DNA from: Planctomycetota bacterium
GTDB taxonomy: Bacteria > Planctomycetota > UBA1135 > UBA2386
Direction of reading: 5' to 3'
Assembly: GCA_044230075.1 (NCBI GenBank)
Contig: JBGARS010000005.1
Coordinates: 52,799 to 116,798 of the forward strand
DNA length: 64,000 bases
Positions 26,083-33,387 of this stretch are shown here, in pieces (positions within the stretch are counted from its first letter, which is position 1; each line of letters begins with the position of its first letter). The position numbers and the translations under genes were made by a program. The notes under the pieces were generated by a model. The model had not been told where the DNA came from. It worked only from the letters and a program-made list of their open reading frames with translations, and searched no databases.

Positions 26083-26892
26083 GGTCAGCACAAGCCCGAA
26101 CTGGAAGCCGTCGAGTTTCAGGTCGGCGTCGTAGCCGAAACCGTCCGCGCTGCCCTTCGCCGGGAACTCGCTGTAGCGGTAGCCGCCGAAGAAGGTCACG
26201 TCGCGCATCGGGATCCGGTAGCTGAGCCGCGCCTCGAAGTCCTGCTGCGTGCCGCCGTAGTCGCCGCCGAGTGCCAGGTCCGGCGAGATCGCGTAGTCGA
26301 GGTCGAGAGCGACATCGTGCCAGCTCACCTCAGCGCGCACGGCCGGGCAGACGACGTCGCCGTCGACGCTGGCGTTCTGCGTGCGCAGGGTGTCGTCGGT
26401 GCGGACGCGCAGCTTCATCGACCGGTGGGCCAGCACACCGCCGGCGGCGAAACGGAACTTCAGCGGCTGCTCGCGGTACTCGGTCTCGAGGTCGAACAGC
26501 GGTTCGAGGTAGCCCAGGCGCAGGTCGTCCATCTTCGCCTGCAGGGTGACGACGTCGGTGGCGAACAGGCGGCCGAAGTCCGCGGTCAGCGCACCCGGGT
26601 GCGCGCTGCCCATGTCCATCATGTAGTAGTCGAGACGGAAGCCGCCGAACCCGTCGCCGATGTCGACGCGCACGCCGATGTCTTCGTGGTGGTGGTCCTG
26701 GCCGAGCGTACGCGCCGTCTGCGGCGCGTTGTTCTGCAGCGGGCCATTCGCCGCCGGCTGCGACTGCATGCCGAGGCTGCCGCGCAGCTGGTAGACGGCG
26801 AGGTACGGCGACACGAGGACTTGCGGCTCCGCCATCGTCAGTGAGGTGCAGGAGCCCAGGCACAGGAGGCCGATGGTGGCAGCGGTGCGCAT
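26077..26892 (-). CDS. Outer-membrane beta-barrel protein (271 aa)
   Basis: Met at 26892 gives the signal peptide MRTAATIGLLCLGSCTSLTMA. The body shows an alternating beta-strand pattern, and the C-terminus (…FGLVLTF) ends in Phe as in typical OMPs. Confidence 0.7.
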   Translation of the reverse strand: MRTAATIGLLCLGSCTSLTMAEPQVLVSPYLAVYQLRGSLGMQSQPAANGPLQNNAPQTARTLGQDHHHEDIGVRVDIGDGFGGFRLDYYMMDMGSAHPGALTADFGRLFATDVVTLQAKMDDLRLGYLEPLFDLETEYREQPLKFRFAAGGVLAHRSMKLRVRTDDTLRTQNASVDGDVVCPAVRAEVSWHDVALDLDYAISPDLALGGDYGGTQQDFEARLSYRIPMRDVTFFGGYRYSEFPAKGSADGFGYDADLKLDGFQFGLVLTF

Positions 26893-26914
26893 GCGCGGAA
26901 GGCTAGCCGGGAGC

Positions 26915-27655
26915 ATGGCGCGCGGCCTGCTGTTTCGTAGGCTCTCGCGGATGACCGGCGAGTTCCTCGAGCGCGACTTCAAGGCCTACGAAAAGCACCG
27001 TCAGGACGACCCTGAGTACAACGCGCTGCGGCTGAGTGTTCGCCGCAAGCTGAAGTCGATGGTCGACGCGGTGGTCAAGGAGGCCAAGCCGCTCGGTACC
27101 GAGCTGTCGGCGCAGGCGGGGCTGCACCATCCCTACACCTTCAACAGCTACCGCGTGCGGGAGCAGCGCGCGTATGCGTGCCGTGGCGCGAAGGAACGGA
27201 AGCAGCTGGCGGCGTTCTTCGGCGACGCGCTCGGCAAGGATGCCGAGACGCACTACATCCAGACCGTGCTGGAGGTCTGCATGGACGACCAGCTGGTCGA
27301 GGCCGCGCTGCGCATCCACCCGCAGGCGTGGTGGGACGGCGAGAACCTGAAGAAGAAGCTGCTCGCGGACCCGGCGCAGATGGACCAGTTCTGCGTGCTG
27401 CTGAAGGCGCTACCGGGTGGCTTCAACGTCAAACTGCACGACTGGAAGAAGGACCACTGGTGCAGTGCGGTGAAGGCCAGCGAGCTGAAGGAGATGTTCC
27501 AGCACTACACGCCCGGCGAGCACTGGCTGCACGTGCAGCGGCAGCTGCCGAAGGAGGATGCGCTGGAGATGGGGGTGGCGGCGGAGGTGTGGGTGCGCAC
27601 GTCGCTGCTGGCGCTGTTGCCGGTGTACCGGTTCATCCTGTGGGATCCGAGCTGA
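26915..27655 (+). CDS. Hypothetical cytoplasmic protein (about 235-246 aa; start 26915 or 26951)
   Basis: High GC3 throughout. I cannot confidently recognise a family (remotely DUF2461-like in layout). Its 3' end is duplicated downstream at 28331-28414. Confidence 0.65.
   Translation: MARGLLFRRLSRMTGEFLERDFKAYEKHRQDDPEYNALRLSVRRKLKSMVDAVVKEAKPLGTELSAQAGLHHPYTFNSYRVREQRAYACRGAKERKQLAAFFGDALGKDAETHYIQTVLEVCMDDQLVEAALRIHPQAWWDGENLKKKLLADPAQMDQFCVLLKALPGGFNVKLHDWKKDHWCSAVKASELKEMFQHYTPGEHWLHVQRQLPKEDALEMGVAAEVWVRTSLLALLPVYRFILWDPS
27575..27655 (+). repeat. Copy A of the duplicated gene 3' end (…AAEVWVRTSLLALLPVYRFILWDPS*)
   Basis: About 80% nt identity by eye to 28331-28414. Most substitutions are synonymous or conservative. 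Confidence 0.8.
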
Positions 27656-27668
27656 GCGCCGCCGGAGA

Positions 27669-27962
27669 TCAGGGGCGACGACCGAGCCGATGGCTCGGAT
27701 CGCGGCTGCCGTGCAGCACGGCGAGCACGAGCACCTGCTCCTGATCCGCGCGATAGAAGGTGCAGTAGGGGAAGCGCGGTAGCAGCGCGCGCCGCCAGGG
27801 TGCGTGGGCGACGCGGAACCGCAGCGGGTGTTCGAGGATCTGCTCCAGCGCCACGTCGACCGCAGCCACGAACGTCTCTCCAAGTCCCGCCTGCCGAGCC
27901 TCGTACCAGTCGGCGGCCTCCGCGATGTCCGCGGCGGCCGCGTCGGTGACGACGAGCCTCAC
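27669..27962 (-). CDS. parE: ParE/RelE-superfamily toxin (97 aa)
   Basis: The GTG at 27962 overlaps the antitoxin stop (GTGA). …AAADIAEAADWYEARQAGLGETFVAAVDVALEQILEHPLRFRV…RRALLPRFPYCTFYRADQEQVLVLAVLHGSRDP matches the plasmid-stabilisation ParE pattern. Confidence 0.85.
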   Translation of the reverse strand: MRLVVTDAAAADIAEAADWYEARQAGLGETFVAAVDVALEQILEHPLRFRVAHAPWRRALLPRFPYCTFYRADQEQVLVLAVLHGSRDPSHRLGRRP

Positions 27963-28198
27963 GGGTGCGGACGCAGTCGGCCGCGGATCTCCTCCCGCAC
28001 TTCCTGCCACGAACGCGTTCGCATGTCGCCGGCGTCGTAGGCCGCCTGACGGCGGTCTAGTTCGGCGCGCTGCGCGGCCGTGACCGGCAGGGACTGCGGA
28101 TCCTGCTGGAAGCTCTCCCAGACCTGGTCGAGCAGCTGCAGGCGTTCCGCGTCGGTCAGCGTAGAGAGGTCGAGCTTCGGCAAGGCCATGTCGTGCAT
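27959..28198 (-). CDS. Antitoxin, 'addiction module component' type (79 aa)
   Basis: GGAGGA lies 5 nt upstream of ATG 28198. MHDMALPKLDLSTLTDAERLQLLDQVWESF…AELDRRQAAYDAG…SWQEVREEI is typical of the short antitoxins paired with ParE-like toxins. Confidence 0.8.
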   Translation of the reverse strand: MHDMALPKLDLSTLTDAERLQLLDQVWESFQQDPQSLPVTAAQRAELDRRQAAYDAGDMRTRSWQEVREEIRGRLRPHP

Positions 28199-28289: not shown

Positions 28290-28414
28290 GCGCCGCAGAC
28301 ACCGGAGGAGCACGCGATCGGGTGGAGGCAGTGGCGGAGGTGTGGGTCAGGACCTCGCTGCTCGCGCTGCTGCCGATCTACAAGTTCACGCTGTGGGAGC
28401 CCGACGGCGCGTAA
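28290..28414 (+). pseudogene. Decayed second copy of the 3' end of gene 26915..27655
   Basis: …AVAEVWVRTSLLALLPIYKFTLWEPDGA* at 28331-28414. Upstream similarity (PEEHAIG versus PKEDALEMG) lies in a different frame because of a 1-nt length difference. There is no start or N-terminal body. Confidence 0.65.
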
Positions 28415-28431: not shown

Positions 28432-31083
28432 TCAACGCCGCAACGTCCTGGCTGCGCGCAGCCCAAGGCTGCCGCTGCGGAACGCGGAGGGGATGCCGTT
28501 GCGGACGGCGGACTGCGCGTTGTGGGGTGCGAAAACGAAGTTGCCACCTCGGGGGCAGCGGTTGACGGGACCTCCAGAGGGCTCTGGTCGTCGGCCGTCG
28601 CCGACGCGCTCCGCCCCATAGCTCGAGAATTCGTCGAAGCACCACTCCCAGACGTTGCCGCCTGTGTCGAACAGTGCGAAGCCATTGTAGCTCTTCGAGC
28701 CGACAGGTCGCAGAGACCGACTGCCGACGTTCTCCTTGGCCTCGACGCCTTCCTCGTCGCTACCCGTCCACCACTTCGTCGTCGTACCCGCGCGGATGCC
28801 ATACTCCCACTGCAACTCGCTCGGTAGCACGAGCCCATGCGCGTGCAGCACCGGGTCGATGTCGACCCAACTCACCTGCTCGACCGGCAGCGCGAGGTTG
28901 TTCTCTGTCTTGCTGTGGCTCGGGTTCGTGGCCGTCCATCGGAGCCATTGGCCCTGCGTCACCTCGTACTTGCCGAGGAAGAACGGGTCGAGCCGCACGG
29001 TGAGTCGCTTCTTCGCACCCTCGTCGTCCGTGGGCGTGTCCGGGGGCAACGTGCCACCGGGCAACAACACGAACACGATCCCCGTCTCGCCCGTGATCGT
29101 GAGTCGGCCGTCCACGCCGTGTAACGGGATCGGCAGCGTCGCCGGATCCTGCACGCCATCCCAGGCGCTGCGCAGGTCGTAGAACTCCCACAGCTTCGAC
29201 TGCGCGTTCATGCCGATCGGCACGAGGCCCCAGACGTCCTCGTCGCGCAGCGGGATGTCCTGGCCGGCGTAGAGCGTGCTCGCGACGACGCCATCCGCCT
29301 TCGCGATCGCCGCGCGCGCTTCGGCCCAGGTGTGCTTCGCGTTCGGATGCGCGAGGGTCAGGGGGCCAATGTGCCGGGCCCACTGCTGGCGCTTCTCCAC
29401 CTCGGGCAGCAGCCCCTCGAGTTGCGGCAGCTTGCGCAGCAGTTCGCCCAGCGACTTCGCCAGGAACTGCGCCGCGGTCGCCGCGGCAGGATCCGCAGGC
29501 AACAGTTGCCGCGCAGCCGTCATGGTGAGGTCGACGCGTTGTGCGAGCAGGGACCGCGCGTCGCGCAACCACGCGTCGATCGCTTCGACCTGCCCGGGCC
29601 AGCCCGGCGACAGGGTCGGTTCTGCAGCGATCAGCCGCTCGTACGTGACGACCTGGGCAAGTTGGTCGAAGTCCTTCACCTTGCCGGTGAGTTCCGTCCT
29701 GGCGGTTGTCTCAGCGATGGCCCGTTGGTCGGCTTCGCGCGCGTAGGCCGTCGTGCCAGCGATGCCGAGGACCAGGATCAACGCCGCGGCGGCGAGGCTC
29801 GCGGCGAGCGCCTTGTTGCGGCGCATCCACAACTTCATCTCGACGAGCGCGCCGGTGCGGTAGGCCCTGACGACCCGCTGGGCGAGGAACGCGCGCACAT
29901 CGGCGGCCAGCGCCAGCACGTTCGGGTAGCGCGCGTTGCGGTCGCGGGCCATCGCACGTTCGACGATGGCCACCAGTTCGGCAGGCACGCCCTTGTGCAC
30001 GTCCTCGATGCGCTTGCACGGCCCGTCGACGACATCGTTGAGGATGCGATACGCGGGCTGTCGCACGCCGGCCGTCGTGTACGGCGCGCGCCCGGTGAGC
30101 AACTCGTAGAGTATCGCGCCGATCGCGTAGACGTCAGTTCGCTGGTCCAGCTCTTCACTGCGCGCCTGCTCGGGCGACATGTAGCTCGGCGTGCCGAGCT
30201 GCTGGCCGTCCATCGACACCACCGACGACGCGGTGTCCGTCTCGCCGTCGCGCTTGCGCGCCGACTCGATCTTCGACATGCCCGTACTCGCGTCCTGCTG
30301 GATGCGCAGGTCGTGACGGTCCGCTTGCCCGATCACCTTCGCCAGCCCCCAGTCCATCACGTAGACCTCGCCGAACTTGCCGACCATGACGTTCCTCGGC
30401 TTCAGGTCGCGGTGCAGCACACCCTTGTCGTGCGCGTAGGCCATCGTGTCGCAGACCTTCAGCACCACCTCGAGCGCGCGCGTCAGGGGCCAGTCGTGCT
30501 CGCCGACGAACGCATCCGCGAACACCTCGCTCGCGGTGCGCCCCTTCACCAGTCGCATCGTGAAGTACACCTTGCCCGCCGCATCGAGCCCCAGTTCGTG
30601 CACCGGCACCACACCCGGGTGGTCGAGCTGGCTCGTCACCTGCGCTTCTTCGAGGAAGCGCCCGAGCAGCTGACGCACGAGCTGCCGCTCCTCCTCGTCG
30701 CGTGGCGCGGCGCGTTCGATCAGCACCTTCATCGCCAGTCGCCGGTTCAGGAACCGGTCGTGGATCTTCAGCACGACACCCATGCCACCCTGCCCGACCT
30801 CACCCTCGAGCACGAACCGCTGCGCATCGAGCTTCGGCGCCGTCGCCAGCTTCGCCAGCAGCTCGCTGGTCGCCGTCGACTGCACCTTGTCGTTGGGCGT
30901 GGGCGTTGGCGTTGGCGAGGGGGTGTCGATGGCTTCCTCCGGATCGGCGAAGTCGGGAGTCTGCCGGGTCCACGGCCCGGTTGCCATGCACGCGAGTGCC
31001 TGGCGGACGGTTGGCGACATCGGCATCCGGGCTGCGGCGTCGGGCGGGGTCCTCGTCCCATGGGCCGCGAGCCGATTCCGCAC
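28432..31083 (-). CDS. Membrane Ser/Thr protein kinase with extracytoplasmic FGE-sulfatase (SUMF1-like) domain (883 aa)
   Basis: Hanks kinase motifs (GQGGMGVV, AMK, HRDLKPRNVMV, DWGLAK, SPEQ). One TM segment (ALAASLAAAALILVLGIAGTTAYA). C-terminal FGE-like domain (FLGKYEVTQGQW…GNVWEWC…RGGNF…). Confidence 0.88.
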   Translation of the reverse strand: MRNRLAAHGTRTPPDAAARMPMSPTVRQALACMATGPWTRQTPDFADPEEAIDTPSPTPTPTPNDKVQSTATSELLAKLATAPKLDAQRFVLEGEVGQGGMGVVLKIHDRFLNRRLAMKVLIERAAPRDEEERQLVRQLLGRFLEEAQVTSQLDHPGVVPVHELGLDAAGKVYFTMRLVKGRTASEVFADAFVGEHDWPLTRALEVVLKVCDTMAYAHDKGVLHRDLKPRNVMVGKFGEVYVMDWGLAKVIGQADRHDLRIQQDASTGMSKIESARKRDGETDTASSVVSMDGQQLGTPSYMSPEQARSEELDQRTDVYAIGAILYELLTGRAPYTTAGVRQPAYRILNDVVDGPCKRIEDVHKGVPAELVAIVERAMARDRNARYPNVLALAADVRAFLAQRVVRAYRTGALVEMKLWMRRNKALAASLAAAALILVLGIAGTTAYAREADQRAIAETTARTELTGKVKDFDQLAQVVTYERLIAAEPTLSPGWPGQVEAIDAWLRDARSLLAQRVDLTMTAARQLLPADPAAATAAQFLAKSLGELLRKLPQLEGLLPEVEKRQQWARHIGPLTLAHPNAKHTWAEARAAIAKADGVVASTLYAGQDIPLRDEDVWGLVPIGMNAQSKLWEFYDLRSAWDGVQDPATLPIPLHGVDGRLTITGETGIVFVLLPGGTLPPDTPTDDEGAKKRLTVRLDPFFLGKYEVTQGQWLRWTATNPSHSKTENNLALPVEQVSWVDIDPVLHAHGLVLPSELQWEYGIRAGTTTKWWTGSDEEGVEAKENVGSRSLRPVGSKSYNGFALFDTGGNVWEWCFDEFSSYGAERVGDGRRPEPSGGPVNRCPRGGNFVFAPHNAQSAVRNGIPSAFRSGSLGLRAARTLRR

Positions 31084-31110
31084 CCGGGTGGGTGCGAGGG
31101 TCTGCCGCGG

Positions 31111-32075
31111 TCAGTCCCCGAACACGGCAGCGAATGTCGGTGCGGTGAGCACGGCGCACGCGATGCGGTCGAGCTCTTCTGGCGTGCTGGCGCAGAGGCG
31201 TTGGATCGCGGCTTCGGGGAGTGGGCCGAAGCGCTGTTCGAGTTGGCGCTGCAGCATCTGGGCGATGCCCTCGGCGCGGCCGAGCTGCATCAGTTGTTCG
31301 GCGGTGGTCATGTACTTGGCTTCCATCGCGGGTTCGAGGTCAGCGAAGGCGAGGCGCAGGCGCTCTGTCGGCTCGTTGCTGACGGCGGCGGTGTAGGAGA
31401 CTAACCGATAGGCGATCTCGCGTCCGCCGGGCACGGCGAGCAGTGTCCGGTAGAGCGTCTGCCAGGTGCGCATCAGGTTGGCGGTGTCCGCGCGGCGGCG
31501 CAGTCACTGCAAGTGCAGCAGCGGCAGCAAGGCGCGCACGGCCAATCGGCGCGCGTGCAGGTCCTGGTTCTCCGGCGCGGTCAGGTCGTCGAGGTCGAAC
31601 GCGAACGCCGGCTGGCGCGAGAGCAAGTGCTCGGGCAGGCCGTCCAGGTCGATCAGGGCACGCAGGTCGCGCGGTCCCGACCACGGGCGCTGACCGTGGT
31701 GCAGGACCAGCGGCAGCACCGGCGGCAGGCGGCGTTGCTCGGGGTGTTCGCGGCGGTAGCGCGGCCAGATCGCGACGACGTAGGCCAGCAGCTGGAGCGG
31801 GGTGAACGGGTCTGCCCCGGACTTGTGCTCGAGCAGCAGATACAGCAGGGTCGGGCGGTTGCCAGCCTCTGCCGCGAACAGCAGATCGGCCTGCTGCCCA
31901 CGCAGCGCTTCGTCGATGAAGGATCCTTCGAGCCGGCGCAGCGTGCGCCAGTCGATCGCGGCGACCACATCCACGGGCAGGGCGCTGCGCAGCAGCTCCC
32001 CGCGGGCCCGGGCTTGCCGAACACGCCGCGGAACAGGGCGTCGTGCGGATTCTGGATGGCGTGCAGGTCGTCCAC
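31111..32075 (-). pseudogene. Rpn-family (YhgA-like, PD-(D/E)XK) recombination-promoting nuclease, disrupted by one frameshift and one in-frame TGA
   Basis: GTG 32075 (GGAG upstream) opens …NPHDALFRGVFGKPGPAG. A frame change in the G/C run near 31990 is then needed to continue ELLRSALPVDVVAAIDW…ADLLF…LLLEHKS (the D…ExK core). An in-frame TGA at 31504-31506 follows. The same frame then continues as an intact 120-aa ORF (31111-31473) encoding the C-terminal helical domain. Confidence 0.7.
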
Positions 32076-32148
32076 GGATGTCTCCGTGGAGGAAGTGCGC
32101 GATGGGGGGGGCAGGCGGTGCGTGTCTACTGCCTCGACCGTACCGAAC

Positions 32149-33387
32149 TCACTGGCTCGGATAGGTCGCCTTGACCCACTCGATCCACTTCTCGTCGAAC
32201 TGCAGCACCGAGATGCCGTACGCATCCTGGATCGCATCGCGCATCGCCCCGACCAGGTCCGTTTGGTCCGGCGCCCACGTCTTCGGGTCGACGCGGCCCT
32301 TCACCGCGAACAGGAACTTGCGCCACTTCTCGGGGCCCTGCGACATCATCCAGTCGACGCGCGACCAGACCGCGACGTGGTCGTCGAACTTGATGTCGCC
32401 GAAGTCGCGCCACTTGTAGCTCTCGGCGAAGCTCGCGAACTTGCCGGTCCCCGACACCATCGCGCGGCAGTACTGCGCCCACTTCGCCGTCGTCTTCATG
32501 TCGGCGATCGAGCCTTCGTTCTGGTCGAAGTCGTTGTACTTGATGTCGACGCGGCGGGCGACCCAGTGGCCGAAGCCTTCGCGGATCCAGACCGGCAGGT
32601 CGTAGCCGTAGAAGCGGAAGCCATCGAGCAGGTTCTGGCTGACGTTGAAGGCGAGCGAGCAGTGCAGGGCCGTGTCGTGCTTGCGCGGGAACTCGCCGGA
32701 CTCGGTCGCCAGCGCGATCAGCAGCGTGCCGGTTTCCTTGAAGTGCCAGCGCTGCGGGTACTTCGTGTCGCGGCCGATGAAGCCCTTCATGTACTGCTGG
32801 TACGGTCCCAGCTTCTCGAACACCAGCACGAGGAACTTGTCCTTCATGCCCATGTAGGGCCCGTAGCCCATGTAGCGCGCGCCCGGCGTCAGCACGACGT
32901 TGTTGGGATCCGGTGGGAAGTCCGCGTCCTTGACGCCGAACAGTTCCTGCGTCTCCGCGTACAGCTTCTCCATGCGGTACGCGGTCAGGTGCGCGCGCAG
33001 CCACGGGTCGAGCGTCTTCGGCTTCGGGTTGATGCCGGGCAGCTTCTCGGCCAGCTCGGTCAGTTCACCTCTGAGCTTGGTGCGCGTCTCGAGGTCGACC
33101 GGCACCGGCCACGCCGGCAGGTTGGTGCCGATGCGGAAGTGCGCGGTCTCGATCCAGAGGATCTGCACGTAGTCGATCGCCGCGTCGATGTCGGAGCTGC
33201 TGACCGGGTTGTCGGCCTTGTTGCCGAACGGGAACGGCCCGAACGACACGTAGCCAGCCTTCTTCATCAGCTCCGGGTCGTTCTTGGTGTACGGATCGAT
33301 GCGCCACTTCGGCAGCTTGTCCTTGTCGCCCTGCGCGAGCAGCGGCGTGCCGAGCAAGCAGGCGAGCAGCAGGGAGATGGTGCGCAT
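32149..33387 (-). CDS. Secreted protein with degenerate gluzincin (peptidase-MA-like) core (412 aa)
   Basis: Met at 33387 gives the signal peptide MRTISLLLACLLGTPLLAQ. HCSLA occupies the HExxH position and is followed by LPVWIREGFGHW (the PxWxxEG motif of MA-clan or DUF1570-like proteins). GC3 is high. Confidence 0.7.
   Translation of the reverse strand: MRTISLLLACLLGTPLLAQGDKDKLPKWRIDPYTKNDPELMKKAGYVSFGPFPFGNKADNPVSSSDIDAAIDYVQILWIETAHFRIGTNLPAWPVPVDLETRTKLRGELTELAEKLPGINPKPKTLDPWLRAHLTAYRMEKLYAETQELFGVKDADFPPDPNNVVLTPGARYMGYGPYMGMKDKFLVLVFEKLGPYQQYMKGFIGRDTKYPQRWHFKETGTLLIALATESGEFPRKHDTALHCSLAFNVSQNLLDGFRFYGYDLPVWIREGFGHWVARRVDIKYNDFDQNEGSIADMKTTAKWAQYCRAMVSGTGKFASFAESYKWRDFGDIKFDDHVAVWSRVDWMMSQGPEKWRKFLFAVKGRVDPKTWAPDQTDLVGAMRDAIQDAYGISVLQFDEKWIEWVKATYPSQ

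What the first reader, a model, noticed from the sequence alone, without database searches (positions are those of the whole stretch)
31111..32075. Rpn (YhgA-like) nuclease gene split so that its C-terminal domain is a separate intact ORF
Reading the minus strand, the N-terminal Rpn signature (…NPHDALFRGVFGKP…) is in one frame. The PD-(D/E)XK core (…ADLLF…LLLEHKS…PLVLHHGQRPW…) needs a 1-nt frame change in a G/C run near 31990. The core ORF then ends at an in-frame TGA (31504-31506: …LHLQ*LRRRADTANLMRTWQ…). The same frame continues into an undamaged 120-aa ORF (31111-31473) that encodes the helical C-terminal domain (…AEGIAQMLQRQLEQRFGPLPEAAIQRL…). In E. coli, Rpn proteins have been reported to act as toxic nucleases neutralised by a short C-terminal isoform made from an internal start in the same gene. 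Here the stop codon physically separates the two parts. The locus may be a decaying toxin whose antitoxin-like part is retained, or a bicistronic version of that intragenic arrangement. It lies 27 nt upstream of the kinase gene and about 3 kb from the ParE cassette.
Basis: partly seen in the sequence, partly recalled or inferred. Interest (0 to 1): 0.55.

Follow-up and report, generated by a model that had tools for sequence, protein, structure and literature searches.

The report
Recently inactivated Rpn nuclease pseudogene
This is an ordinary, recently broken copy of an Rpn (YhgA-like) toxin-nuclease gene in a Planctomycetota genome; its "intact" 120-codon tail is most likely what is left of the old reading frame, not a separately kept antitoxin gene.

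Summary
Minus strand 32075-31111 encodes an Rpn/YhgA-like PD-(D/E)XK protein (PF04754, E=2e-39 after repair). It is broken by a 1-nt deletion at 32003-31998 and by a TGA at 31506-31504. A 120-codon ORF (31473-31111) follows.

Both lesions are real. The deletion is in all five near-identical assemblies. The TGA is in three of them; the other two have TGG, as intact homologues do. The ATG that opens the 120-aa ORF is also new (CTG elsewhere) and has no Shine-Dalgarno-like sequence upstream.

Related Planctomycetota carry an intact 317-321 aa gene at the same position.

Since the frameshift, the locus has gained 10 nonsynonymous changes, 1 synonymous change and 1 extra indel. The neighbouring gene shows 5 synonymous to 1 nonsynonymous (Fisher p=0.005). 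In the last 81 codons the pattern changes from 11 syn:2 nonsyn before the clade to 0:3 within it (p=0.018).

So the toxin half died first and the whole gene now looks unconstrained. Nothing indicates a bicistronic design or selective retention of the tail. By homology with E. coli RpnS, the antitoxin-equivalent would be only the last ~66 aa. Separate RpnS genes are already known. Interest is low.

The parts
32082..32085 (-). Shine-Dalgarno-like GGAG, 6 nt upstream of the native GTG start of rpn
   Evidence: Read directly. The upstream leader is conserved in the second rpn copy of L012.
32001..32075 (-). N-terminal remnant of rpn in the original frame: 25 codons (VDDLHAIQNPHDALFRGVFGKPGPA) carrying the family-invariant H11, D12 and F15
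   Evidence: H11, D12 and F15 are invariant in 37 homologues.
31998..32003 (-). Frameshift site: a 1-nt deletion in GCGGGG (ancestral GCN GGG GAG). It is shared by all five near-identical assemblies and absent from intact homologues.
   Evidence: Alignments. The alignment of L011 with the window has no gaps.
31507..32000 (-). PD-(D/E)XK core of rpn in the -1 frame (ELLRS...ADLLF...LLLEHKS...LLPLLHLQ). The mechanical 156-aa ORF 31504-31974 (GTG start) lies inside it.
   Evidence: In one search the 156-aa ORF matches PF04754 at 103.9 bits. D64, E83, H84 and K85 are conserved.
31504..31506 (-). Nonsense codon TGA. It is TGG (Trp191) in L001, L011, L004, L008 and P0001-P0003, and is derived in the window/L010/L013 lineage only.
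31471..31473 (-). ATG that opens the 120-aa ORF. It is CTG (Leu) in L001, L011, L004 and L008, so it is a lineage-specific substitution. No Shine-Dalgarno-like sequence lies upstream (gcgcggacaccgccaacctg).
31111..31473 (-). 120-aa ORF: part of the middle helical region plus the C-terminal DUF4351-like helical bundle of the former Rpn protein
   Evidence: In one search it matches DUF4351 at 22.6 bits, below the cut-off of 25. The AF2 model of the homologue P0003 shows helices 198-247 and 249-309.
31111..31311 (-). Candidate RpnS-equivalent (66 aa, MTTAEQLMQLGRAEGIAQ...), starting at the family-conserved Met. GGAAG lies 8 nt upstream (31324-31320), and the hypervariable 4-residue-repeat segment begins about 11 residues after the Met. 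This is an inference by homology; expression is untested.
   Evidence: layout of E. coli RpnS in PMC10400941.

Best explanation
The locus is a young pseudogene of an Rpn (YhgA-like, PD-(D/E)XK) toxin-nuclease gene.

Proposed history:
1. In related Planctomycetota the gene at this position is intact (317-321 aa). It has the same layout as the E. coli RpnL/RpnS intragenic toxin-antitoxin genes.
2. In the species-level lineage of this window, a 1-nt deletion after codon 25 disconnected the invariant N-terminal PHDxxF helix from the D...E-H-K core. This step is shown.
3. Ribosomes starting at the native GTG now read 116 out-of-frame codons and stop at 31655-31653, so no RpnL can be made. This step is inferred from the sequence.
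4. The dead gene then drifted. This strain acquired TGG>TGA, CTG>ATG and three further amino-acid changes. A sister strain (L001) acquired a second 1-nt deletion.

The 120-aa ORF is the still-unbroken tail of the old frame. Its start codon arose by chance. It is most likely neither a designed second cistron nor under selection.
For: - Family identity: PF04754 at 135.6 bits on the repaired protein. 293 homologues were found; the listed full-coverage ones (about 300-400 aa, typically 317-360) are single ORFs.
- Conserved residues: H11, D12, F15 and D64 invariant, E83 nearly invariant (>=90%), followed by invariant H84 (EHK motif).
- Synteny: both flanks are collinear with L004 (MAG Planctomycetota JAEUHS010000019) and L008. 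There an intact rpn lies directly after the same upstream gene.
- Lesions are real and ordered: the deletion is in the window, L010, L013, L001 and L011. The TGA and ATG are only in the window, L010 and L013. L001 and L011 keep TGG and CTG.
- Relaxed constraint between the window and L011: 5 syn:1 nonsyn in the upstream gene against 1 syn:6 nonsyn in rpn (Fisher p=0.029).
- Relaxed constraint over the three lineages: 1 syn:10 nonsyn plus 1 indel (p=0.005). This fits neutrality (p=0.17) and not the omega of 0.30 measured between the intact copies L004 and L008 (p=0.002).
- Tail: in the last 81 codons, 11 syn:2 nonsyn on the branch to L012a against 0:3 within the frameshifted clade (p=0.018).
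- Translation signals: none recognisable before ATG 31473 or GTG 31974.
Against: - Counts are small: 11 substitutions in all, and 3-4 in the tail.
- With the tail's own baseline omega of 0.39, 4 nonsynonymous out of 4 gives only p=0.07.
- Some L001-specific differences are mostly transversions on a 1-kb Logan contig and could be assembly errors.
- An excess of nonsynonymous change would also fit diversifying selection on an RpnS-like module, which Zhong et al. describe as hypervariable.
- The candidate RpnS-equivalent (31311-31111) and its GGAAG are intact, so expression of a small protein cannot be excluded from sequence alone.
- The window's assembly may come from the same project as the SRR303507xx runs. 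Those runs would then be independent assemblies but perhaps not independent samples. L011 is from a different JGI study.
Confidence: 0.8

Rival explanations
1. Orphan antitoxin. RpnL is dead, but the RpnS-equivalent is still transcribed from an internal promoter and translated. It could be the last ~66 aa from Met 31311 or the 120-aa ORF from the new ATG. It would serve as a free-standing DUF4351-type antitoxin, for example against a paralogous or incoming Rpn toxin.
For: - The reading frame 31473-31111 is open.
- The conserved Met at 31311, with GGAAG 8 nt upstream, is identical in intact homologues that are about 80% identical in DNA overall.
- The Met-then-4-residue-repeat layout matches E. 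coli RpnS (PMC10400941).
- Free-standing RpnS genes exist in E. coli (ypaA).
- A stop codon and a new ATG 10 codons later arose in the same lineage.
Against: - There is no synonymous change in the tail since the frameshift, against 3-4 nonsynonymous changes. The older branch is 11 syn:2 nonsyn.
- Two of the changes (R>L in the dimerisation helix, L>F near the C terminus) hit positions that are conserved among close homologues.
- RpnS acts specifically on its cognate RpnL, which is dead here.
- No second rpn copy lies in the 64-kb window.
- No Shine-Dalgarno-like sequence precedes ATG 31473.
- An open tail is expected by chance after so few mutations.
Confidence: 0.12
2. Functional split or bicistronic Rpn system. 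The nuclease core would be made by programmed frameshifting or from the internal GTG 31974, and would be neutralised by the separately translated C-terminal ORF.
For: The core motifs D64 and E83-H84-K85 are still encoded. The family was once annotated as transposases, some of which use -1 frameshifting (background knowledge).
Against: - There is no X XXY YYZ slippery heptamer in the zero frame at 32010-31996 (read).
- Intact homologues need no frameshift.
- The sister strain L001 has a second, different 1-nt deletion in the core.
- A product from GTG 31974 would lack helices 1-3, which carry the invariant H11, D12 and F15, and no SD-like sequence precedes that GTG.
- The core accumulates nonsynonymous changes as the rest does.
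- The TGA removes everything after the helix ending at residue 191, which full-length homologues keep fused.
Confidence: 0.03
3. Sequencing or assembly artefact: the gene is actually intact.
For: The indel lies in a short G run (G4 against an inferred G5), a typical site of homopolymer errors.
Against: - The same deletion is in five assemblies from at least four read sets and two sources (NCBI/window, three Logan runs, one JGI metagenome). The alignment with L011 is ungapped over 2415 nt.
- The TGA is a substitution seen in three assemblies and is polymorphic against TGG in two others.
- The substitution pattern of the locus is that of an unconstrained sequence.
Confidence: 0.02

Closest known systems
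E. coli RpnA-E / RpnP2 intragenic toxin-antitoxin genes (RpnL nuclease + RpnS from an internal start; Zhong et al. 2023, PMC10400941)
   Same: - Same Pfam family (PF04754) and the same PD-(D/E)XK D...E-x-K core.
- C-terminal helical DUF4351-like module.
- In the Planctomycetota homologues, a conserved internal Met is followed after about 10 residues by a segment that varies in length by 4-residue (Q/R)EG(R/L)-type repeats. This is the RpnS layout.
- AF2 of the homologue P0003 gives one long helix plus two short ones at the C terminus, like the RpnA_S three-helix bundle described in the paper.
   Different: - Only distant sequence similarity to the E. coli proteins: the RpnA equivalog model scores 63 bits against a cut-off of 583.
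- The toxin reading frame is destroyed here by a frameshift and a stop.
- Neither RpnS expression nor nuclease activity has been tested in this clade.
Free-standing RpnS genes (rpnE_Ss = ypaA, rpnC_Ss; DUF4351 proteins)
   Same: A C-terminal Rpn module exists as its own ORF next to, or instead of, the nuclease part.
   Different: - The known genes arose by duplication downstream of an intact rpn gene and are shown to be expressed.
- Here the ORF is the undisrupted tail of a broken gene.
- It is twice as long as a typical RpnS.
- It has a newly arisen ATG without an RBS.
- It shows no purifying selection.
Decaying type II toxin-antitoxin loci (toxin inactivated first, antitoxin ORF transiently intact)
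   Same: The order of events is the same: inactivating mutations fall in the toxin part and the antitoxin-like part is still open. The setting is also similar: a variable region next to another TA pair (Unstab_antitox/ParE).
   Different: Toxin and antitoxin share one reading frame here. The 'antitoxin ORF' therefore only became a separate ORF through the nonsense mutation.

Membership tests
Rpn / YhgA-like (PF04754, COG5464) | Significant match to the PF04754 profile | tested here: met
   135.6 bits against a cut-off of 21 for the repaired protein (profile 1-194 of 203), and 103.9 bits for the 156-aa ORF alone.
Rpn / YhgA-like (PF04754, COG5464) | PD-(D/E)XK catalytic signature (D ... E-x-K) and the N-terminal PHDxxF motif | tested here: met
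   H11, D12, F15, D64 and H84 are invariant and E83 nearly invariant across 37 homologues. All are encoded in the window, but H11, D12 and F15 are in a different frame from the core.
Rpn / YhgA-like (PF04754, COG5464) | One uninterrupted ORF of about 290-360 aa encoding RpnL | tested here: not met
   a 1-nt deletion at 32003-31998 and a TGA at 31506-31504. This is a pseudogene of the family, not a functional member.
Rpn / YhgA-like (NCBIfam TIGR01784 subfamily; RpnA equivalog NF007361) | Score above the curated cut-off | tested here: not met
   TIGR01784 scores 32.6 bits against 52.1, and NF007361 scores 63.4 bits against 583. This is a distant family member, not an RpnA equivalog.
RpnL/RpnS intragenic toxin-antitoxin | C-terminal DUF4351 / three-helix RpnS module | tested here: inconclusive
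   PF14261 scores 22.6 bits, below the cut-off of 25, although many homologues carry a precomputed PF14261 hit. The AF2 model of P0003 shows helices 249-283, 288-295 and 299-309. Neither Foldseek nor sequence search against the PDB gave a significant match.
RpnL/RpnS intragenic toxin-antitoxin | Hypervariable 4-residue repeats starting 8-20 residues after the RpnS initiator Met | tested here: met
   homologues differ in length exactly here (for example P0009 and P0016 with (Q/R)EG(R/L) repeats), about 10 residues after the conserved 'YM'. The window has GRAEGIAQ. This is shown for the clade, not for function.
RpnL/RpnS intragenic toxin-antitoxin | Internal promoter and iTIS that produce RpnS; RpnS binds and blocks the cognate RpnL | not testable with these tools
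   Only a conserved ATG (31311) with GGAAG upstream was seen. The sigma-70 scan found nothing in this 69% GC DNA.
RpnL/RpnS intragenic toxin-antitoxin | Intact toxic nuclease partner | tested here: not met
   The frameshift precedes the core, and no second rpn copy lies in the window.

The most novel reading that the evidence does not exclude
The nonsense mutation and the CTG>ATG change 10 codons downstream arose in the same lineage. Together they would have converted the tail of a dead rpn gene into a free-standing, expressed RpnS/DUF4351-type antitoxin gene. This would be a route to orphan RpnS genes by degeneration of the toxin rather than by duplication, possibly giving immunity against related Rpn toxins.
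Probability: 0.07. Interest if true: 0.4.

Novelty: new member of a known kind. Interest (0 to 1): 0.15.

Why it matters
It matters little in itself. It is a dated example of how an Rpn toxin-antitoxin gene decays: the toxin frame breaks first, the stop comes later, and the TGA/TGG alleles are still polymorphic among near-identical strains.

The useful by-product is comparative. Planctomycetota Rpn homologues show the same conserved internal Met followed by a 4-residue-repeat hypervariable helix that defines RpnS in E. coli. This extends that gene-within-gene layout to another phylum and names a testable internal start.

For annotation, the 156-aa and 120-aa ORFs called at this locus by gene finders should be merged into one pseudogene.

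Tried and rejected
- Paralogue search in the window: tblastn found no second rpn or DUF4351 copy.
- PDB sequence search with the repaired protein: no relevant hit, and the RpnA_S crystal chain was not recovered.
- Foldseek of the AF2 model against the PDB: nothing at E<=0.001. There were only weak, thematically consistent PD-(D/E)XK hits (XisH, MGME1, MspJI, Cap4, CinB). I do not use them as evidence.
- Promoter and terminator scan of 30900-32300: no hits, which is uninformative at this GC content.
- Scan of JGI metagenome contigs for other alleles of the frameshift site, allowing 5 or 6 bases: it returned only the contig already held as L011. No intact allele of this gene type was found.
- GTDB genome scan: it returned only one close relative (L002 = L004) and not the source genome, so the organism stays 'Planctomycetota, related to GCA_016794035.1'.
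- Programmed -1 frameshifting: rejected, because there is no slippery heptamer in frame, intact homologues have no shift, and L001 has a second indel.
- Sequencing error: rejected on the five concordant assemblies.
- Literature search for DUF4351: nothing beyond Zhong et al. 2023.

Full report
**1. What is in the sequence**

On the minus strand, a GTG at 32075 is preceded by GGAG at 32085-32082. It opens a frame that reads VDDLHAIQNPHDALFRGVFGKPGPA. From about 32000 the homologous reading continues one base out of register: ELLRSALPVDVVAAIDW...QADLLF...LLLEHKS...LVLHHGQRPW...LLPLLHLQ. It ends at TGA 31506-31504. The same frame then continues (LRRRADTANL), and an ATG at 31473 opens a 120-aa ORF that ends at 31111.

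With one base restored and the stop read through, the 321-aa product matches PF04754 (Transposase_31, YhgA-like) at 135.6 bits, E=2.2e-39, over profile positions 1-194 of 203. The tail gives a sub-threshold DUF4351 match of 22.6 bits against a cut-off of 25. NCBIfam places it only loosely with RpnA and TIGR01784, below their cut-offs. The only correction is that the frameshift lies at 32003-31998 rather than 'near 31990'.

**2. The lesions are real, and their order can be read**

The protein search found 293 homologues. The closest full-length ones are single ORFs of 317-321 aa from Planctomycetota MAGs and metagenomes, at 68-75% identity. All of these read ...LLPLLHLQ**W**LRRR..., so the stop is a TGG>TGA change.

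Four further assemblies are 99-100% identical to the window:

| Locus | Source | Identity to window | Frameshift | Codon 31506-31504 | Codon 31473-31471 |
|---|---|---|---|---|---|
| L010 | Logan SRR30350725 | 1 mismatch in 2041 nt | yes | TGA | ATG |
| L013 | Logan SRR30350711 | 1 mismatch in 647 nt | yes | TGA | ATG |
| L001 | Logan SRR30350712 | 99.0% | yes | TGG | CTG |
| L011 | JGI 3300012956 | 99.13%, ungapped over 2415 nt | yes | TGG | CTG |

- All five assemblies share the same missing base: CCCG-CGGGGAG, against GCC GGC GAA in the intact copies L004, L008 and L012b.
- L001 also has a second 1-nt deletion of its own in the core.

The frameshift is therefore the older event and is common to the whole species-level clade. 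The stop and the ATG are recent, lineage-specific and still polymorphic. A sequencing artefact is very unlikely.

**3. Genomic context**

The window is collinear on both sides with L004 (MAG Planctomycetota JAEUHS010000019, GCA_016794035.1) and L008 (JGI 3300048838). Window 38063-32147 and 27659-21585 match their flanks, and an intact rpn gene sits directly after the same upstream 410-413-aa gene.

What follows rpn varies:
- L004: nothing extra.
- L008: an Unstab_antitox/ParE pair.
- The window: a Pkinase + FGE-sulfatase gene (28432-31083) and then the ParE pair.

L012 carries a window-type rpn tail (93% identical). It is followed by a 75-nt remnant of the kinase 5' end, then a fragment of the next gene's 3' end, and then a second, L004-type rpn copy. 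The same roughly 100-nt fragment is present in the window at 28302-28401.

This looks like the trace of a tandem duplication of an rpn-containing unit, the kind of event Zhong et al. report for rpn arrays. It also means the window's gene may be a close paralogue, rather than the strict orthologue, of the L004/L008 gene. That does not change the argument.

**4. Selection**

Between the window and L011:
- The upstream gene differs at 5 synonymous and 1 nonsynonymous sites.
- rpn differs at 1 synonymous and 6 nonsynonymous sites, counting the stop and the ATG. Fisher p=0.029.

I polarised the changes with L001 and the outgroups. The three frameshifted lineages together carry 10 nonsynonymous changes, 1 synonymous change and 1 indel. 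Against the upstream gene this gives p=0.005.
- Ten or more nonsynonymous changes out of 11 is compatible with neutrality (p=0.17).
- It is not compatible with the omega of 0.30 measured between the intact copies L004 and L008 (p=0.002).

The 120-codon tail taken alone has 4 nonsynonymous and 0 synonymous changes.

In the last 81 codons, which hold the RpnS-equivalent:
- The older branch to L012a shows 11 synonymous to 2 nonsynonymous differences, which is strong constraint.
- Within the frameshifted clade the count is 0:3 (Fisher p=0.018).

The numbers are small, and some L001 differences could be assembly noise. Every comparison nevertheless points the same way: constraint was lost over the whole gene, tail included, after the frameshift.

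**5. Structure and the real RpnS-equivalent**

An AF2 model of the intact homologue P0003 (pLDDT 92.8, pTM 0.87) shows the following:
- Helices 2-40 precede the beta-sheet core: strands 41-48, 64-71 (with D64), 74-83 (leading into E83-H84-K85) and 120-126.
- The frameshift falls at residue 25-26, so the invariant H11, D12 and F15 are cut off from the core.
- W191, the position of the stop, ends helix 180-191.
- A middle helical region (198-247) follows.
- The protein ends in one long helix (249-283) and two short ones (288-295, 299-309).

Zhong et al. (PMC10400941) report these points:
- E. coli RpnA_S starts at M244 of 292 and is 49 aa long.
- Its RBS lies in the K240/E241 codons.
- It is a three-helix bundle with a long first helix.
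- The 4-residue repeats begin 8-20 residues after the initiator Met.

In the alignment of Planctomycetota homologues, a well-conserved Met ('YM-T-x-AE') lies about 10 residues before a segment whose length varies by (Q/R)EG(R/L)-type units. In the window that Met is at 31311, with GGAAG 8 nt upstream. These 21 nt are identical in L004, L008 and L011.

By homology, then, the antitoxin-equivalent is the last 66 aa and not the 120-aa ORF. The 120-aa ORF exists only because list-type ORF finding starts at the first ATG after the new stop. That ATG is a fresh CTG>ATG substitution with no Shine-Dalgarno-like sequence. Without it, a GTG at 31434 would define a 107-aa ORF instead.

**6. Mechanism (best explanation, about 0.8)**

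The ancestral gene most likely worked like the E. coli RpnL/RpnS systems: a toxic DNA endonuclease held in check by its own C-terminal module made from an internal start. This is inferred from family membership and layout. In this lineage the toxin frame was broken by the 1-nt deletion, which is shown.

Translation from the native start now yields 25 native residues plus 116 out-of-frame residues and stops at 31655-31653. That is about 180 nt upstream of ATG 31473, so translational coupling to the tail is not possible; this is read directly from the sequence. The gene then drifted, as shown by the substitution pattern, the second indel in L001 and the nonsense mutation here. The open tail is what chance predicts after about five substitutions.

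**7. Rivals**

- Orphan antitoxin (about 0.12): this cannot be excluded, because the candidate internal start and the frame are intact and free-standing RpnS genes exist. The tail shows no purifying selection, RpnS is specific for its cognate RpnL, and no partner is visible.
- Functional split or frameshifted system (about 0.03): there is no slippery site, the N-terminal motif is lost, L001 has a further indel, and the core is unconstrained.
- Artefact (about 0.02): five concordant assemblies argue against it.

**8. Novelty and verdict**

The locus is a pseudogenised member of a known family, in a known kind of setting (a variable region next to another TA pair). Separate-gene RpnS arrangements are already published.

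The one modestly useful observation is that the RpnS layout (internal Met followed by a 4-residue-repeat helix) is recognisable in Planctomycetota. Interest 0.15.

Noticed in passing
window 28432-31083 (minus strand): An 883-aa Ser/Thr kinase with a C-terminal FGE-sulfatase domain lies between rpn and the ParE cassette. It is absent from this position in the otherwise collinear relatives L004 and L008. Its 5' end is present in L011, and a 75-nt remnant is present in L012. The spot downstream of rpn is a variable insertion site.
   Followed up: partly
window 28302-28401; compare 27548-27648: A degenerate copy of about 100 nt (76% identical) of the 3' end of the 269-aa gene at 26846-27655 sits between the kinase gene and the Unstab_antitox/ParE pair. 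The same fragment occurs in L012 (398-490), just upstream of a second rpn copy. This suggests a past tandem duplication of an [rpn ... start of next gene] unit, followed by deletions.
   Followed up: partly
L012 1-1005 (JGI 3300048592): Two rpn genes lie in tandem on one 1-kb contig: the tail of a window-type copy (93% identical) and the head of an L004-type copy (95%). Only about 250 nt of remnants separate them. It is either a real rpn array or a chimeric assembly.
   Followed up: partly
window 27669-28196 (minus strand): An apparently intact type II TA pair: a 79-aa Unstab_antitox protein (PF09720, E=3e-15) followed by a 97-aa ParE toxin (PF05016, E=1e-11). It is present in L008 and L009 but absent from L004.
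   Followed up: partly
alignment A2, columns about 318-350; window 31281-31258: Planctomycetota Rpn homologues vary in length by runs of 4-residue units, (Q/R)EG(R/L), directly after a conserved 'YM-T-x-AE'. This is the same hypervariable-helix feature reported for E. coli, Bacillus and Clostridioides RpnS.
   Followed up: partly
L001 (Logan SRR30350712) against window 32110-31110: All 9 substitutions between L001 and the window are nonsynonymous, and 7 of the 9 are transversions. L001 also has one extra 1-nt deletion. The transversion excess is odd and could reflect low-coverage assembly errors rather than biology.
   Followed up: no
window 32149-33384 (minus strand): The conserved upstream gene encodes about 412 aa with a signal-peptide-like N terminus (MRTISLLLACLLGTPLLAQ). 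It has no Pfam match, yet it is 84-93% identical in L004 and L008 and under clear purifying selection (5 syn:1 nonsyn against L011).
   Followed up: no
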